Shown in pieces: positions 5,236-18,408 of a DNA stretch of 25,673 bases; positions within the stretch are counted from its first letter, which is position 1, and each line of letters starts with the position of its first letter. The position numbers were made by a program, and so were the translations under genes. Source of the stretch: Gammaproteobacteria bacterium (lineage in GTDB: Bacteria; Pseudomonadota; Gammaproteobacteria; SURF-13). Under the pieces are notes generated by a model that ran no database searches, was not told the origin of the DNA, and was given only the letters and a program-made list of their open reading frames with translations. The stretch is taken from contig JAMCTV010000111.1 of the NCBI GenBank assembly GCA_023381235.1, positions 1 to 25,673 on the forward strand, given 5' to 3'.

Positions 5236-5643
5236 ATGAGCTACGCCTATTTCGATCACGACGCCGATATCGGCATTACCGGCTACGGCGCTACAGTGGA
5301 GGAAGCCTTTATCGCTGGCGCGCAGGCGATGTTCGCCATTATGGCGAATATCACCTTGGTGCACGATACGCAGCACATCGAGTTCAGTTTCACGGAGTTT
5401 GACACTGAACTGGCGTTCGTTACCTGGCTGAACAACTTGCTCACCGAGGCGCAGAGCCGGGGGTTGGTGCTGACGCGCTTTGAGTTGCACAAGAAGGGCG
5501 CGCAATGGCACGCGCAGGCATGGGGCGAGCCGTGGCGCGAGGATTTGGAGCGCGGCGTGGAGGTCAAGGGCGCGACGCTCACCATGCTCTCGGTCACGCT
5601 CAAGAACGGACTCTGGGAGGCGCGCTGTGTGGTGGATGTTTGA
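5236..5643 (+). CDS. Archease (RtcB activator)
   Basis: N-terminal YFDHDADIG, C-terminal EVKGAT...W.A..VVDV, and position directly upstream of rtcB. Confidence 0.93.
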   Translation: MSYAYFDHDADIGITGYGATVEEAFIAGAQAMFAIMANITLVHDTQHIEFSFTEFDTELAFVTWLNNLLTEAQSRGLVLTRFELHKKGAQWHAQAWGEPWREDLERGVEVKGATLTMLSVTLKNGLWEARCVVDV

Positions 5644-5675
5644 GATGAGTCGCGGAAGTAAAGGAGGGTAGCGCA

Positions 5676-7109
5676 ATGGATATGCGGCGTTTGCAAAAGA
5701 TAGACGATTACCGCTGGAGCATACCACTGGCTGCCGGCGAGCAGCGCGCGCCGGTATGCCTGTACGGCAGCGAGCCGTTGCTGGCCAGCATGGACGACAA
5801 GGTGCTGGAGCAGATCACCAATGTCGCCAAGCTCCCCGGCCTGGTCGGCGCCGCGATGACCATGCCGGACGCGCATTGGGGCTATGGCTTTCCCATCGGC
5901 GGCGTGGCGGCGTTTGACGCGGAGCAGGGCGGCATCATCTCCGCAGGCGGCGTGGGTTTCGATATTTCCTGCGGCATCCGTTGCCTGCGCACTAATCTCG
6001 ATCTGCCCGCGGTCACGCCCAAATTAAAGGACCTGGCCGACGCCTTGTTCCACTCTATCCCGGCGGGCGTGGGCGAAGAAGGGCGGCTCAAGCTCGCCCC
6101 GGCGCAGTTGGATAAGGTGCTGCAAGGCGGCGCGCAATGGGCGGTCAAGCAGGGCTATGGCGTGCCGGAAGACTTGGAGTATGTGGAAGAAAACGGTTGC
6201 GTGGCGGGCGCCGTGCCGGAAAACGTTTCGGATCACGCCAAGAAGCGCCAGCGCGGCGAAATGGGCACGCTGGGGTCGGGCAACCATTATCTGGAGGTGC
6301 AGGTGGTGGAGCGCATTTACGATCAAGCCGCCGCGCAGGCCTTTGGTCTTCGCCAGGGACAGATCGTGGTGTCCATCCATTGCGGCTCGCGCGGCTTGGG
6401 ACATCAGATCGGCACCGAGCATCTGGTCTCGCTGGCCAAGGCCGCCTCGCGCCTGGGGATTTCCCTGCCGGACCGCGAACTCGCCTGCGCGCCGATCAAC
6501 TCGCCTGAAGGGCAAGAGTACATCGGCGCCATGAACGCCGCCATCAATTGCGCGCTTGCCAACCGCCAGATCCTTGCGCACCTCACGCGCGAAGTATTCG
6601 CGCGCGTGCTGCCCGATGCCACGCTGGGAACGCTGTTTGACATATCGCACAACACCTGCAAGGTGGAGAAACATAAGGTAAACGGCAAACAGCGCACACT
6701 CCACGTGCATCGCAAGGGCGCGACGCGCGCCTTCGGCCCGGGGCATCCCGCGATCCCAGAACGCTATCGTGAGACAGGGCAGCCGGTCATCATCGGTGGC
6801 ACGATGGGCACCGGCTCATACGTGCTGGCGGGCACGGCGGAGAGCGAAACCAGGGCCTACTCCTCGGCGAGCCACGGCGCGGGGCGCGCCATGAGCCGCC
6901 ATCAGGCGCTGCGCCATTGGCGCGGACGCGAACTGATTGACGAACTGGCCGAACACGGCATTCTGATCCGCACCCGCTCCATGCGCGGTGCGGCGGAAGA
7001 GGCGCCGGGCGCTTACAAGGACGTGGACCTGGTGGCCGAGGCGACGGAAAAGGCCGGACTTGCCCGGCGCGTCGCCTTCCTGTGCCCCAAGGCGTGTATC
7101 AAGGGCTAA
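5676..7109 (+). CDS. rtcB: RtcB-family RNA 2',3'-cyclic phosphate/5'-OH ligase (long, archaeal-like type)
   Basis: MPDAHWGYGFPIGGV, GFDISCG, GTLGSGNHYLE, HCGSRGLG, SHN, HRKGAT, HGAGR, EEAPGAYK and C-terminal IKG. GGAGG RBS. Confidence 0.97.
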   Translation: MDMRRLQKIDDYRWSIPLAAGEQRAPVCLYGSEPLLASMDDKVLEQITNVAKLPGLVGAAMTMPDAHWGYGFPIGGVAAFDAEQGGIISAGGVGFDISCGIRCLRTNLDLPAVTPKLKDLADALFHSIPAGVGEEGRLKLAPAQLDKVLQGGAQWAVKQGYGVPEDLEYVEENGCVAGAVPENVSDHAKKRQRGEMGTLGSGNHYLEVQVVERIYDQAAAQAFGLRQGQIVVSIHCGSRGLGHQIGTEHLVSLAKAASRLGISLPDRELACAPINSPEGQEYIGAMNAAINCALANRQILAHLTREVFARVLPDATLGTLFDISHNTCKVEKHKVNGKQRTLHVHRKGATRAFGPGHPAIPERYRETGQPVIIGGTMGTGSYVLAGTAESETRAYSSASHGAGRAMSRHQALRHWRGRELIDELAEHGILIRTRSMRGAAEEAPGAYKDVDLVAEATEKAGLARRVAFLCPKACIKG

Positions 7110-7120
7110 GGCATCCGAAG

Positions 7121-16783: not shown

Positions 16784-16840
16784 AGATTGGCGACGTCTTT
16801 TTGCCCTAGAGTGAAGGCGTCAAAAACAAGGAGTGACGTC

Positions 16841-17389
16841 ATGCAGATTCCGCTGCAAATTACCTTTCGTGACATGCCCCCTTCGCCGGCCGTGGAAGCG
16901 CGTATCCGGCAAAAGGTGCAAAAACTGGAGTCATTTTATGACCGCATCATGGGCTGCCGGGTAGTGGTGGACATGCCCCAGAAGCATCATCATCAAGGCA
17001 AGCTTTACAATGTGCGCATTGATATCACCATGCCGGGCGGCGAGATCGCGGTGAATCGCCAGCCGGATGAGGATGTGTACGTGGCGCTGCGCGATGCGTT
17101 TAATGCCGCCGGCCGCCAGCTGGAGGATTATGCGCGCGAGCAGCGCGGCGATGTGAAGACCCATGAGACACCCCATCACGCGCGCGTTGTCAAACTCTTT
17201 CCGGAGGAGGATTATGGTTTTATCGAAACGCTGGACGGCGAGCAGATTTATTTTCACCGCAACAGCGTGGTGCACCCGCCGTTCGATCATCTCAAGATCG
17301 GCACCGAGGTATTGTTTATCGAAGAACAGGGCGAGAAAGGGCCGCAAGCGAAACTGGTGACTGTCGGCAAACACCACCTTGCCGGGTGA
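16841..17389 (+). CDS. HPF/RaiA ribosome-associated protein fused to a cold-shock domain
   Basis: LQITFRDM..SPAVE..I..K..KL and EDVYVALRDAF..A.RQL, followed by YGFIET.DG..IYFHRNSV. AAGGAG RBS. Confidence 0.9.
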   Translation: MQIPLQITFRDMPPSPAVEARIRQKVQKLESFYDRIMGCRVVVDMPQKHHHQGKLYNVRIDITMPGGEIAVNRQPDEDVYVALRDAFNAAGRQLEDYAREQRGDVKTHETPHHARVVKLFPEEDYGFIETLDGEQIYFHRNSVVHPPFDHLKIGTEVLFIEEQGEKGPQAKLVTVGKHHLAG

Positions 17390-17415
17390 CGCTTGCCGTC
17401 AGGCGCCGGCCGGAT

Positions 17416-18408
17416 TTATCCGGCGCAATGGATCCAAAGTTTGTGCTCCGCGCGCTGCACCTCCGTGCCGAGTTCCGCGCACAGGCGCATCATGCGCCGG
17501 GCGATGTATTCAAACTGCTCTCCCGCGGCGCGTTCGGTACGGCACTGGCCGATGAAGACCGGGTAAAGGGCGATGCCTTGCAGCGAAGAGCGCGTGAGCG
17601 CCAATTCGAAGAGTGATTGATGGTCGTTGCGAAAGCCGGGATCAACATAATAATCGTCCACCAGATCACCCGCGGCGTAAATGATCGGACGGCCGCGGTA
17701 AATCTCGATGCCATGAAATAGATGGGCGCTATGGCCGAAGATAATACCATAGCCCATGTCTATCGCAGCGCGGGCCAGTTTTATGAAATACCTCGAAGGG
17801 CGCTCCGCCCAGTTCGATCCCCAGTGCAGCGACAGAATGGGCCAGTGCACGCCGTTATCGCGCAGCATGGCGCAACCTTTACCTATCTCCGCCAGCGTCC
17901 GTTGCTCATCCATCAAATCCAGATAGGCGATGCCCGGCTGATTGTCTCCGGCGGCGAAGTCCTCCTGATGGTCACAATAGGCCGCCATGCCGAACTTGAC
18001 GCCTCCGCGCTCAACACAGGCCGGCGCTTGCGCCGCGTGTTTATTTGCTCCGGCCCCGGCGTGGGCAATGCCATGCGCGTCCAGATGGCGCAGTGTGTCA
18101 TGCAGACCCTCAGTGTTGAAATCCAGGGTGTGGTTATTGGCCAGGCTCACCAGGTCCACGCCTGCATTTTCAAGGGACTGGGCGGCTCCGGGCGGGGCGC
18201 CGAAATAAAAGGCCTTGGGCGCGCCGTGCCATGGTTGCGTGGATGAGGTGATGGCGCATTCCAGATTGACCACGGTCACGTCCGCCGCGCGCATGAGCGG
18301 GGCGATCCCGCCGAGAGGATAGTCCGCGCCGTGCGTCCCGATGTACTGCGCCACGATGCGTCCCAGCATGACGTCGCCGCCAAACATGACACGCAGGGGC
18401 TGATCCAT
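17416..18408 (-). CDS. CapA/PGA_cap-family metallophosphoesterase, apparently cytoplasmic
   Basis: GDVMLGR, VNLEC, SLANNH..D, HAGAG, SLHWG, GHSAH and YAAGD; no signal peptide or TM anchor visible. Confidence 0.88.
   Translation of the reverse strand: MDQPLRVMFGGDVMLGRIVAQYIGTHGADYPLGGIAPLMRAADVTVVNLECAITSSTQPWHGAPKAFYFGAPPGAAQSLENAGVDLVSLANNHTLDFNTEGLHDTLRHLDAHGIAHAGAGANKHAAQAPACVERGGVKFGMAAYCDHQEDFAAGDNQPGIAYLDLMDEQRTLAEIGKGCAMLRDNGVHWPILSLHWGSNWAERPSRYFIKLARAAIDMGYGIIFGHSAHLFHGIEIYRGRPIIYAAGDLVDDYYVDPGFRNDHQSLFELALTRSSLQGIALYPVFIGQCRTERAAGEQFEYIARRMMRLCAELGTEVQRAEHKLWIHCAG

What the first reader, a model, noticed from the sequence alone, without database searches (positions are those of the whole stretch)
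5236..18408. Candidate proteobacterial dormancy island paralleling the M. tuberculosis DosR regulon
Seen: archease, RtcB, a stand-alone PRTase, a CapA-like protein, a RaiA/HPF protein and an oxygen-independent ribonucleotide reductase within 13 kb, plus dodecin and lipid methyltransferases. Known (recalled, not searched): the DosR hypoxia regulon includes Rv2630 (archease-like), Rv2631 (RtcB), Rv0571c (PRTase), Rv0574c (CapA-like), Rv0079 (RaiA-like) and the RNR NrdZ (Rv0570). Inference: the same functional module (preserve ribosomes and RNA, salvage nucleotides, remodel membranes) recurs across phyla under a different master regulator (FNR-type instead of DosR). This is the best candidate here for an under-described system.
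Basis: partly seen in the sequence, partly recalled or inferred. Interest (0 to 1): 0.75.

Follow-up and report, generated by a model that had tools for sequence, protein, structure and literature searches.

The report
FNR-wired low-oxygen survival gene cluster
An uncultured betaproteobacterium keeps RNA-repair, nucleotide-supply, ribosome-hibernation and anaerobic dNTP genes behind three oxygen-sensor (FNR-type) promoter boxes. Its core, archease-RtcB-Prs-like-PRTase, also sits in Mycobacterium next to dormancy-type genes, so the likeness to the tuberculosis DosR regulon holds, but only module by module.

Summary
The listed genes are all present.

Three FNR-type boxes share one geometry and sit ahead of archease-rtcB-prsL-PRTase, dksA-like-nrdDG and HPF-CSD. 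They are conserved in same-genus genomes, one of which encodes an FNR with the Cys cluster.

The cross-phylum claim holds in part:
- The orphan PRTase recurs next to RtcB/archease, HPF-CSD, Prs-like, NAPRTase, HSP20, USP, CBS, M50-CBS and P-type ATPase genes in many phyla. It also occurs fused to archease, to an alpha/beta hydrolase, and to CBS or BON domains.
- In Mycobacterium, PRTase-hydrolase, archease and RtcB are adjacent, beside USP, M50-CBS, HSP20 and a Balon-like gene. CapA and RtcA also occur next to the PRTase there.
- NrdDG, dodecin and the lipid genes are not part of the conserved module.
- The region is not a mobile island.

The idea is not new: published precedents are the Burkholderia lxa locus, FixK regulons and Balon operon contexts. 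This scan reached the same reading on other DNA. The least-described part is the link between RtcB/archease and Prs-like/PRTase. Low-oxygen induction and enzyme function remain inferred.

The parts
5183..5196 (.). FNR-type box P1 (TTGCGCTAGATCAA) between hypC and archease. A -10-like TAGGGT lies at 5220-5225, which implies a transcript start about 3-5 nt before the archease ATG.
   Evidence: The same site is conserved in L002, L003, L005, L006 and L007.
5236..5643 (+). archease
   Evidence: PF01951, 117 bits
5676..7109 (+). RtcB RNA ligase, long archaeal-like type
   Evidence: PF01139, 564 bits. Best NCBIfam match is to the RtcB part of the intein-containing family.
7082..7972 (+). Prs-like PRPP synthase paralogue. 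Seven residues of the PRPP loop deviate, encoded around 7714-7740.
   Evidence: TIGR01251, 173 bits. A canonical prs lies on contig C72. The window reads FFENLSR where all relatives read KRVLMVD.
8082..8720 (+). Orphan type I phosphoribosyltransferase, substrate unknown. Same family as the N-terminal half of the mycobacterial PRTase-hydrolase fusions.
   Evidence: PF00156, 76 bits. 14161 relatives. Fusions.
8744..8947 (-). dodecin
   Evidence: PF07311, 89 bits
9012..9025 (.). Perfect FNR box P2 (TTGATCTACATCAA) between dodecin and the dksA-like gene
   Evidence: Conserved in L002, L003, L006 and L007.
9085..9480 (+). DksA/TraR-type C4 zinc-finger protein, first gene of the nrdDG operon
   Evidence: PF01258; below cut-off for DksA equivalogs
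9522..11609 (+). NrdD, class III anaerobic ribonucleotide reductase with ATP-cone
   Evidence: PF13597, 673 bits, and PF03477
11612..12301 (+). NrdG-type radical-SAM activase (start approximate)
   Evidence: PF04055 and PF13353
12319..13089 (+). SAM methyltransferase (Methyltransf_11/UbiE-like). Variable member of the cluster.
   Evidence: Absent from the cluster in L004.
13099..14226 (-). Geranylgeranyl-reductase-family flavoprotein. Variable member.
   Evidence: TIGR02032, 154 bits. Absent from L004 and L006.
14251..15561 (-). Cfa/CMAS-like lipid methyltransferase. Variable member.
   Evidence: PF02353, 276 bits
15706..16737 (-). RtcA, RNA 3'-phosphate cyclase
   Evidence: PF01137, 268 bits, and PF05189
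16770..16783 (.). FNR-type box P3 (TTGCGCTAGATCAA) between rtcA and HPF-CSD, with a -10-like TAGAGT at 16807-16812
   Evidence: Conserved in L002 and L003.
16841..17389 (+). HPF/RaiA-family hibernation factor fused to a cold-shock domain
   Evidence: PF02482 plus PF00313. The architecture is widespread.
17416..18408 (-). CapA-like (PGA_cap) protein
   Evidence: PF09587, 225 bits
18440..19027 (-). Oligoribonuclease Orn, a housekeeping neighbour that marks the right edge
   Evidence: NF003765, 290 bits. Not next to CapA in L004 or L006.
1542..5107 (-). hypC-hypA-hypB-hypD plus an MBL/RNase Z-like gene, divergent from archease and sharing the intergenic region that holds P1. Left context, not part of the cross-phylum module.
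   Evidence: Synteny in L002-L005 and L007.

Best explanation
The region is a chromosomal cluster of at least three low-oxygen (FNR-type) transcription units. It is not a mobile island.

Inferred mechanism: when oxygen falls, an FNR/Anr-type [4Fe-4S] regulator binds the three boxes, each placed like a class II activator site. This would switch on three units.
1. archease-rtcB-prsL-PRTase: re-ligation of cleaved tRNA or rRNA by RtcB with its activator archease, coupled to a private PRPP synthase and an orphan phosphoribosyltransferase. The latter two most likely salvage a base into a nucleotide while de novo synthesis is shut down.
2. dksA-like-nrdD-nrdG: oxygen-independent dNTP synthesis.
3. 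HPF-CSD: ribosome hibernation. Divergently from the same box, rtcA and perhaps the lipid-modifying genes would also be expressed.

CapA-like is a conserved neighbour whose role and regulation are unknown.

Shown here: the gene identities, the boxes and their conservation, the FNR gene in a same-genus genome, and the cross-phylum gene linkage. In particular, the core (PRTase, archease, RtcB, Prs-like, with HPF, CapA and RtcA as frequent satellites) is an old linkage group. It recurs in many phyla, and in Mycobacterium it sits among DosR-regulon-type genes. The resemblance to the DosR regulon is therefore real at the level of homologous modules, with different wiring.

Inferred, not shown: induction by low oxygen, all enzyme activities, and any role in dormancy.
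For: Gene identities.

FNR boxes and regulator:
- Three boxes share one spacing to a -10-like hexamer.
- They are conserved at the same intergenic sites in relatives.
- The MAG has 9 perfect boxes in 1.27 Mb, against about 0.3 expected from base composition.
- Other perfect boxes precede two HSP20 genes, ppsA, a lactate-dehydrogenase-like gene, and a beta-CASP RNase divergent from a dienelactone hydrolase.
- A regulator with CxxCxxxxxC and an E--SR helix is encoded in same-genus genome G003.

Synteny: the order is kept across four genera of the family at 62-95% amino-acid identity.

Cross-phylum linkage, from 80 PRTase loci of different species (1.28 Mb in total; about 0.3 loci expected for a single-copy gene in a 4-Mb genome):
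- Neighbour counts: HPF 9, Prs-like 10, RtcB 6, HSP20 11, CBS 12, USP 8, NAPRTase 7, P-type ATPase 13, M50-CBS 5.
- PRTase fusions occur with archease, an alpha/beta hydrolase, CBS-DUF2267, BON and HAD domains.
- Class-level sample of 151 genomes, one per family: archease in 34, PRTase in 31, both in 13. They lie within 6 kb in 5 of the 13, of which 3 are outside the window's own family.

Mycobacterium (41 genomes):
- PRTase is present in 39.
- 3 of 4 long-type RtcB genes lie directly after PRTase-hydrolase and archease.
- 2 of 6 PGA_cap genes abut the PRTase.
- L106 holds USP-USP-RtcA-HSP20-PRTase-CapA-Prs-like within about 11 kb.
- L107 holds M50-CBS, USP, PRTase-hydrolase, archease, RtcB, Prs-like and HSP20.
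- L108 holds a Balon-like gene, PRTase, archease and RtcB.

FNR/FixK-type boxes lie ahead of PRTase, HPF, HSP20, CBS and AAA_33-APH genes in other Proteobacteria, and ahead of only 1 of about 40 control genes.

Literature:
- DosR blocks and the annotations of Rv0079, Rv0570, Rv0571c, Rv0574c, Rv2630 and Rv2631 (PMC5309233).
- Rv0079 is a RaiA, Rv2629 is a Balon, and Balon operons contain Hsp20, RaiA and RtcB (PMC10901736).
Against: - No expression data: no RNA run was listed.
- No FNR gene was found in the window's own MAG, which is 77% complete.
- P1 and P3 each deviate from the consensus at two positions.
- CapA has no box and follows orn in this genus.
- NrdDG was never a PRTase neighbour outside this family (0 of 80).
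- Most genomes with both archease and PRTase keep them apart or on different contigs (8 of 13).
- The window holds no USP, HSP20 or CBS gene.
- The window's Prs-like gene carries a 7-residue lesion in its PRPP loop. This may inactivate it, or it may be an assembly artefact.
- DosR-type boxes were not enriched in the mycobacterial loci, so DosR control of those particular clusters is not shown here.
Confidence: 0.7

Rival explanations
1. The cluster is only bookkeeping. Several independent anaerobic or stress operons (hyp, nrdDG, rtc, hpf) happen to lie side by side in small, compact genomes. The cross-phylum parallels reflect nothing more than generic stress genes that tend to sit near each other.
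For: - NrdDG, dodecin and the lipid genes are not linked to the PRTase elsewhere.
- The lipid genes are missing from the cluster in L004, rtcA in L006 and nrdDG in L007.
- CapA follows a housekeeping gene.
- Genomes of this family are only 1.1-2.4 Mb.
- 8 of 13 genomes with both archease and PRTase keep them apart.
Against: - PRTase is fused to archease in some proteins.
- PRTase, archease and RtcB are adjacent in at least seven lineages on a PRTase tree that follows taxonomy.
- 3 of 11 independent families show adjacency, against about 0.08 expected.
- The three boxes share one geometry.
Confidence: 0.2
2. The core operon is an RNA-damage (ribotoxin or conflict) repair system like RtcR-RtcBA or RtcB2-PrfH. 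It would be induced by damaged tRNA or rRNA rather than by oxygen, and the PRTase and Prs-like genes would be accessory repair enzymes.
For: - RtcB, RtcA and archease form a complete end-healing and sealing kit.
- RtcBA is known as a damage-induced operon in enterobacteria (PMC7790460).
Against: - No RtcR or sigma-54 activator is present in the window.
- FNR-type boxes occupy the promoters.
- The neighbours elsewhere are HPF, HSP20, USP and CBS genes, not toxin or immunity genes.
Confidence: 0.07
3. The region is a horizontally acquired genomic island carrying a dormancy cassette.
For: PRTase neighbourhoods are shuffled between lineages, and a review suggests horizontal transfer for DosR genes (PMC5309233).
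Against: - GC content stays at 0.55-0.65 with no step.
- No integrase, transposase or flanking tRNA appears among the called genes.
- Synteny holds across four genera.
- The PRTase tree follows taxonomy.
Confidence: 0.03

Closest known systems
M. tuberculosis DosR (DevR) dormancy regulon, blocks Rv2623-Rv2631 and Rv0569-Rv0574c, plus Rv0079
   Same: The protein families match: RtcB, archease, COG1926-like PRTase, PGA_cap/CapA-like and HPF/RaiA. In Mycobacterium genomes these genes are neighbours of each other and of USP, HSP20, M50-CBS and Balon-like genes. Both sets are tied to oxygen limitation; for this window that tie is inferred.
   Different: - The regulator differs: FNR-type boxes here, not a DosRST two-component system.
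- The PRTase stands alone here, whereas the RtcB- or CapA-linked mycobacterial copies are fused to an alpha/beta hydrolase.
- HPF carries a cold-shock domain.
- The RNR is class III NrdDG rather than NrdZ.
- The window holds no USP, HSP20, CBS, nitroreductase or triacylglycerol-synthase genes.
- Identities are only 31-52%.
Low-oxygen-activated (lxa) locus of Burkholderia cenocepacia J2315 (Sass et al. 2013, PMC3721108)
   Same: A betaproteobacterial chromosomal cluster switched on by low oxygen. Its authors already noted an overlap with the DosR regulon. It includes an oxygen-independent RNR and a pentose or PRPP supply gene.
   Different: lxa is rich in USP genes and carries PHA, alcohol dehydrogenase, acetate kinase and a class II RNR. 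The paper's main text mentions neither RtcB nor archease, and its supplement was not available. The present cluster centres on RNA repair, PRPP/PRTase, HPF-CSD and class III RNR.
FNR/FixK regulons of Alphaproteobacteria (Dufour, Kiley and Donohue 2010, PMC2908626)
   Same: The same box, TTGAT-N4-ATCAA. The predicted FixK regulon lists Hsp20, a CBS-domain protein, a Zn alcohol dehydrogenase, HlyD/ABC genes and a 'putative kinase'. These are the families that recur around the PRTase in my 80 loci.
   Different: That reconstruction does not list RtcB, archease, PRTase, HPF or CapA.
Balon / RaiA stress operons (Helena-Bueno et al. 2024, PMC10901736)
   Same: A published cross-phylum observation that hibernation-factor genes sit with Hsp20, RaiA and RtcB genes. 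It identifies Rv2629 as a Balon and Rv0079 as a RaiA.
   Different: The window has no Balon gene; it has HPF-CSD instead. The searched passages of the paper, including the operon description, do not mention the PRTase/Prs/CapA component or FNR wiring.
Archease-RtcB pair (archaeal and Thermus tRNA-ligase operon) and E. coli RtcR-RtcBA
   Same: RtcB with its activator archease, and RtcA in the same locus.
   Different: There is no RtcR or sigma-54 control. The operon is extended by Prs-like and PRTase genes, and rtcA sits 8.6 kb away on the other strand.

Membership tests
DosR (DevR) dormancy regulon | Control by DosR through its palindromic box, with DosS/DosT sensors | tested here: not met
   The window's promoters carry FNR-type boxes instead. 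DosR genes were not searched for in this MAG. A DosR-like core motif, recalled from memory, was not enriched even in the mycobacterial loci.
DosR (DevR) dormancy regulon | Homology of members to Rv2630/Rv2631, Rv0571c, Rv0574c and Rv0079 | tested here: inconclusive
   Met at family level against unnamed Mycobacterium genomes: PRTase 36-44% identity in 39 of 41 genomes; RtcB 51-52%; archease by Pfam; CapA 31-32% over the full length. H37Rv itself could not be addressed by name. The Rv annotations come from PMC5309233 and PMC10901736.
DosR (DevR) dormancy regulon | Induction by hypoxia, NO or CO, and a role in non-replicating survival | not testable with these tools
   No RNA run was listed.
FNR/Anr/FixK-type low-oxygen regulon (lxa-like cluster) | TTGAT-N4-ATCAA boxes at class II distance from the promoter | tested here: met
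   Three boxes, each 30.5 bp from box centre to a -10-like hexamer, conserved in relatives. Nine perfect boxes in the genome against about 0.3 expected.
FNR/Anr/FixK-type low-oxygen regulon (lxa-like cluster) | An FNR regulator with the N-terminal Cys cluster and an E--SR recognition helix | tested here: inconclusive
   Present in same-genus genome G003 (L093:1492-2226) and in 5 of 5 relatives. Not found in the window's own MAG, which is 77% complete.
FNR/Anr/FixK-type low-oxygen regulon (lxa-like cluster) | USP-rich gene content as in lxa | tested here: not met
   No USP gene in the window, and no tblastn match in the MAG with one USP query. HSP20 genes with FNR boxes lie on other contigs.
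RtcR-RtcBA RNA repair operon | A sigma-54 activator RtcR next to a co-transcribed rtcB-rtcA | tested here: not met
   No Sigma54_activat domain appears in any called gene of the window. rtcA is 8.6 kb from rtcB on the opposite strand.
Archease-dependent RtcB ligase | A full-length RtcB with an adjacent archease gene | tested here: met
   PF01139 covers positions 1-426 of 426, and PF01951 covers 1-136 of 136, with 32 bp between the genes.
Class III ribonucleotide reductase | NrdD domain plus a radical-SAM activase NrdG | tested here: met
   PF13597 at 673 bits with an ATP-cone, and PF04055/PF13353 in the next gene.
Horizontally acquired genomic island | A compositional step, mobility genes, a tRNA or repeat boundary, and patchy presence in close relatives | tested here: not met
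   GC is even. No integrase or transposase domains were found. Synteny holds in four genera. tRNA genes were not scanned.

The most novel reading that the evidence does not exclude
The Prs-like and PRTase pair may not be general nucleotide salvage. It could be a dedicated partner of archease-RtcB. For example, it could make the guanylate (or an alternative nucleotide) that charges RtcB when GTP is scarce in non-growing cells, or it could phosphoribosylate an RNA end or a protein of the repair and hibernation machinery. That would assign a first function to the Rv0571c family and define a new RNA-repair accessory pathway shared by Proteobacteria, Planctomycetota, Bacteroidota and Mycobacterium.
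Probability: 0.15. Interest if true: 0.8.

Novelty: new variant of a known kind. Interest (0 to 1): 0.5.

Why it matters
Several members of the tuberculosis dormancy regulon still have no known function: Rv0571c, Rv2630/Rv2631 and Rv0574c. Their homologues form a linkage group that is conserved across phyla and sometimes fused, under a different oxygen sensor. That points to a selected functional unit combining RNA re-ligation, PRPP-dependent salvage and ribosome hibernation, rather than an accident of mycobacterial regulon history.

It also offers non-pathogenic, genetically simpler organisms in which to study these genes. It narrows the hypothesis for the orphan PRTase to something that works with archease and RtcB.

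The general idea of FNR-wired, DosR-like hypoxia clusters is already published, and this scan has noted it several times. The gain here is incremental.

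Tried and rejected
- No named M. tuberculosis genome is reachable; the 14 control genomes do not include it.
- My own ORF caller failed on many high-GC loci. I replaced it with all-against-all clustering of six-frame ORFs.
- A DosR-box scan with a core motif recalled from memory showed no enrichment over shuffles in the mycobacterial loci: inconclusive.
- The first FNR pattern I sent to the loci had the wrong spacer length. 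I corrected it.
- The supplement of the lxa paper is not held, and Gerasimova et al. 2011 is not held.
- Literature searches for an RtcB-archease-PRTase link, and for Rv0571c, found no study of it.
- No RNA holder was listed for window 5100-9100.
- I rejected the acquired-island reading and the RtcR-type damage-operon reading; the reasons are given under the rival explanations.
- No structure prediction was run, because all domains were already assigned by sequence.

Full report
OBSERVATION

The window is the first 25,673 bases of a 26,281-base contig (C111) of a metagenome-assembled genome. The MAG has 1.27 Mb in 168 contigs and is 77% complete. Its closest named relatives are betaproteobacteria around Sulfuricella and the Gallionellales.

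- archease, 5236-5643
- RtcB, 5676-7109
- a stand-alone PRTase, 8082-8720
- dodecin, 8744-8947, minus strand
- NrdD with an ATP-cone, 9522-11609, and NrdG
- two methyltransferases, 12319-13089 and the Cfa-like 14251-15561
- an HPF/S30AE protein, 16841-17389
- a PGA_cap/CapA-like protein, 17416-18408

- a Prs-like PRPP-synthase paralogue between rtcB and the PRTase, 7082-7972 (the canonical prs is on contig C72)
- a DksA/TraR-type gene heading the nrdDG operon
- a geranylgeranyl-reductase-family flavoprotein
- RtcA, 15706-16737
- a cold-shock domain fused to the C-terminus of HPF

The gene upstream of capA is oligoribonuclease, a housekeeping gene. I take it as the right-hand edge of the cluster.

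REGULATION

There is one perfect FNR box, TTGATCTACATCAA, at 9012-9025. Two identical variant boxes, TTGCGCTAGATCAA, lie at 5183 and 16770. In all three, the box centre sits 30.5 bp upstream of a -10-like hexamer: TATCTT, TAGGGT and TAGAGT. This is the layout of a class II FNR promoter, read against established knowledge of FNR promoters.

The boxes sit ahead of dksA-like-nrdDG, archease-rtcB-prsL-PRTase and HPF-CSD. Divergently, they face dodecin, hypCABD and rtcA. The same intergenic sites carry boxes in same-genus and sister-genus genomes.

The MAG holds nine perfect boxes, where base composition predicts about 0.3. The others precede:
- two HSP20 genes
- ppsA
- a D-2-hydroxyacid dehydrogenase
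- an ABC1 kinase / DUF1451 pair
- a beta-CASP RNA nuclease divergent from a dienelactone hydrolase

No Crp/FNR gene was found in the incomplete MAG, but five of five relatives have one. The same-genus copy carries CxxCxxxxxC near the N-terminus, a central Cys, and an E--SR recognition helix. FNR-type control is therefore a well-supported inference. It is not demonstrated.

IS THE GROUPING MORE THAN CHANCE?

Within the family, the answer is yes. The order hypCABD / archease-RtcB-PrsL-PRTase / dodecin / DksA-like-NrdDG / ... / RtcA / HPF-CSD / CapA is kept in four genera at 62-95% amino-acid identity. The variable parts are informative:
- the lipid genes are absent from the cluster in one genus
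- rtcA is missing in another
- nrdDG is missing in a third
- orn is not next to capA outside the window's genus

Across phyla, I used the PRTase as the anchor. It is the least generic gene, with 14,161 relatives in the 50%-identity library. I fetched 80 loci from 80 species, 1.28 Mb in total. For a single-copy gene in a 4-Mb genome, about 0.3 of 80 loci would contain it by chance. This is my own rough estimate.

Observed neighbours within 10 kb:

| Neighbour | Loci of 80 |
|---|---|
| P-type cation ATPase | 13 |
| CBS-pair protein | 12 |
| HSP20 | 11 |
| Prs-like | 10 |
| HPF (six are full HPF-CSD fusions) | 9 |
| USP | 8 |
| AAA_33-APH kinase-like | 8 |
| NAPRTase | 7 |
| RtcB | 6 |
| M50 peptidase with CBS | 5 |
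| BON | 5 |
| isochorismatase | 5 |
| archease | 3-4 |
| RtcA | 3 |
| dodecin | 3 |
| CapA | 2 |
| NrdD | 0 |

By comparison, ABC ATPases, which have dozens of copies per genome, reached only 17.

Domain fusions tell the same story. The PRTase occurs fused to archease (P0123), to an alpha/beta (dienelactone-type) hydrolase (many proteins of about 440 aa), to CBS-DUF2267, to BON and to HAD domains.

On a PRTase tree that largely follows taxonomy, the RtcB-linked state needs at least eight changes. The link is therefore present in many separate lineages: this family, other Proteobacteria, Alphaproteobacteria, Omnitrophota, Planctomycetota, Bacteroidota and Mycobacterium.

I also took a less biased sample of one genome per family across the class, 151 genomes:
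- archease is present in 34 and the PRTase in 31
- both are present in 13, against about 7 expected if independent
- they lie within 6 kb of each other in 5 of the 13, of which 3 are outside the window's family, against about 0.08 expected

The link is real but facultative: most genomes with both genes keep them apart or on different contigs. The tally of 31 includes one genome flagged as unpublished (G101). No other claim here rests on it.

THE MYCOBACTERIAL SIDE

No named H37Rv genome was reachable. I used 41 genomes of the genus Mycobacterium, reached through locus L089.
- The PRTase is in 39 of 41, at 36-44% identity.
- RtcB is in 8. Of the four long-type copies, three lie 0.7-1.3 kb downstream of a PRTase, with an archease gene in between.
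- In two of those three, the PRTase is a fusion of about 450 aa with an alpha/beta hydrolase. From memory, this is the architecture reported for Rv0571c.
- PGA_cap is in 5 genomes (6 copies), and two copies abut the PRTase.

Individual loci show how close the parallel is:
- L107 reads M50-CBS, USP, USP, PRTase-hydrolase, archease, RtcB, Prs-like, HSP20.
- L108 reads NAPRTase, a baeRF_family2 (Balon/Rv2629-like) gene, PRTase, archease, RtcB.
- L109 reads NAPRTase, Prs-like, PRTase-hydrolase, archease, RtcB.
- L106 reads USP, USP, RtcA, HSP20, PRTase, CapA, Prs-like.

These are the families of the published DosR blocks Rv2623-Rv2631 and Rv0569-Rv0574c (PMC5309233; Rv2629 as Balon and Rv0079 as RaiA in PMC10901736).

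Co-localisation is enriched. The PRTase and CapA proteins belong to the same families as the mycobacterial copies that sit in dormancy-type neighbourhoods.

I could not show DosR control of those particular clusters. A DosR-like core motif was not enriched.

WHAT THE PARALLEL DOES NOT COVER

- The RNR correspondence is functional analogy only. The window has class III NrdDG with its own FNR box, and nrdDG is a classical FNR target in E. coli (established knowledge). NrdD was never a PRTase neighbour in the 80 loci.
- Dodecin and the lipid-modifying genes are weakly linked or variable.
- The window has none of the USP, HSP20 or CBS genes that dominate the DosR and lxa sets, although HSP20 genes with FNR boxes lie elsewhere in the MAG.
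- Nothing marks the region as an acquired island. GC is even, there are no mobility genes, and synteny is stable.

MECHANISM

The most likely reading is a chromosomal FNR regulon cluster for surviving oxygen limitation:
- re-ligation of cleaved stable RNA (RtcB with archease; RtcA to prepare the ends)
- PRPP-dependent salvage (Prs-like plus the orphan PRTase; elsewhere often joined by NAPRTase and a nicotinamidase-like isochorismatase)
- anaerobic dNTP supply (NrdDG)
- ribosome hibernation (HPF-CSD)

CapA-like is a conserved neighbour of unknown role.

Gene identities, boxes and linkage are shown. Induction, activities and physiological role are inferred.

The fusion of PRTase to archease, and the tight PRTase-archease-RtcB order in mycobacteria, leave open a closer coupling. 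The PRTase and Prs-like pair might serve RtcB directly, for example by supplying its nucleotide cofactor. I give this about 15%.

COMPARISON WITH WHAT IS KNOWN, AND NOVELTY

- The Burkholderia cenocepacia lxa locus is a low-oxygen-activated betaproteobacterial cluster. Its authors already pointed to overlap with the DosR regulon, through other genes (PMC3721108).
- The predicted alphaproteobacterial FixK regulon lists Hsp20, CBS, alcohol dehydrogenase, HlyD/ABC and a kinase (PMC2908626). These are the families I find around the PRTase.
- The Balon paper shows hibernation-factor genes with Hsp20, RaiA and RtcB across phyla (PMC10901736).
- I found no paper that treats the RtcB/archease-Prs-like-PRTase(-CapA) linkage or the Rv0571c family.

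This scan has reached essentially the same reading on other DNA:
- e1-2128788, e1-2310026, e1-5152726 and e1-900388 describe similar islands.
- e1-943656 describes the same four-gene operon.
- e1-3039479 describes the PRTase-archease fusion.

I file the cluster as a new variant of a known kind, with moderate interest.

LIMITS

- H37Rv could not be queried by name.
- No expression data exist for this organism.
- Enrichment figures use a rough genome-size assumption, and the species sampled are not fully independent.

Noticed in passing
window 7082-7972 (residues about 212-218, DNA about 7714-7740): The window's Prs-like protein reads GFFENLSRDMIDTG where every relative, including same-genus genomes, reads GKRVLMVDDMIDTG. 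This removes the first Asp of the PRPP-loop DD pair. It may be a real inactivating lesion or a MAG assembly artefact.
   Followed up: partly
window 16841-17389: HPF fused to a cold-shock domain is a widespread architecture: over 7000 hits, nearly all listed ones about 180-215 aa, in Proteobacteria, Nitrospirota and Zixibacteria. I found no study of it. Full-length copies sit next to the PRTase in Alpha- and Betaproteobacteria and in Planctomycetota.
   Followed up: partly
window 5183-5238: Given the box and -10 geometry, the archease transcript should start about 3-5 nt before the ATG, and no Shine-Dalgarno sequence is visible. The operon may be made as a leaderless or near-leaderless mRNA.
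   Followed up: no
window 1542-5107: hypC-hypA-hypB-hypD is followed by a metallo-beta-lactamase/RNase Z-like gene where hypE would be expected, with a MazG-like gene (1137-1556) and hypF beyond. The order is conserved in same-genus genomes (L002, L003).
   Followed up: no
G000 contig C34 around 777 (L111): A perfect FNR box lies between a beta-CASP/RMMBL RNA nuclease gene and a dienelactone-hydrolase gene. The hydrolase is the domain fused to the PRTase in mycobacteria. This suggests that further RNA-metabolism members of the same regulon lie elsewhere in the genome.
   Followed up: partly
G000 contigs C56 (2500-3015) and C131 (1115-1480): Two HSP20 genes in the same MAG lie directly next to perfect FNR boxes. 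The alpha-crystallin arm of a DosR/lxa-like set exists here but is unlinked to the window.
   Followed up: partly
proteins P0129, P0137, P0176, P0177, P0201, P0155: The PRTase family also occurs fused to CBS-DUF2267 (N-terminal), to BON and to HAD domains. These are the same families that recur as its gene neighbours.
   Followed up: partly
L108:8069-11825: In one Mycobacterium genome a Balon-like (baeRF_family2) gene, the PRTase, archease and RtcB lie in a row. The PRTase sits between the counterparts of Rv2629 and Rv2630.
   Followed up: partly
window 24539-25672: The long ORFs on both strands at the right end of the window have no Pfam match.
   Followed up: no
window 22058-22465: A DUF5615/PIN-like small protein, possibly a toxin-antitoxin-type nuclease, lies between DUF2238 and icd.
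   Followed up: no
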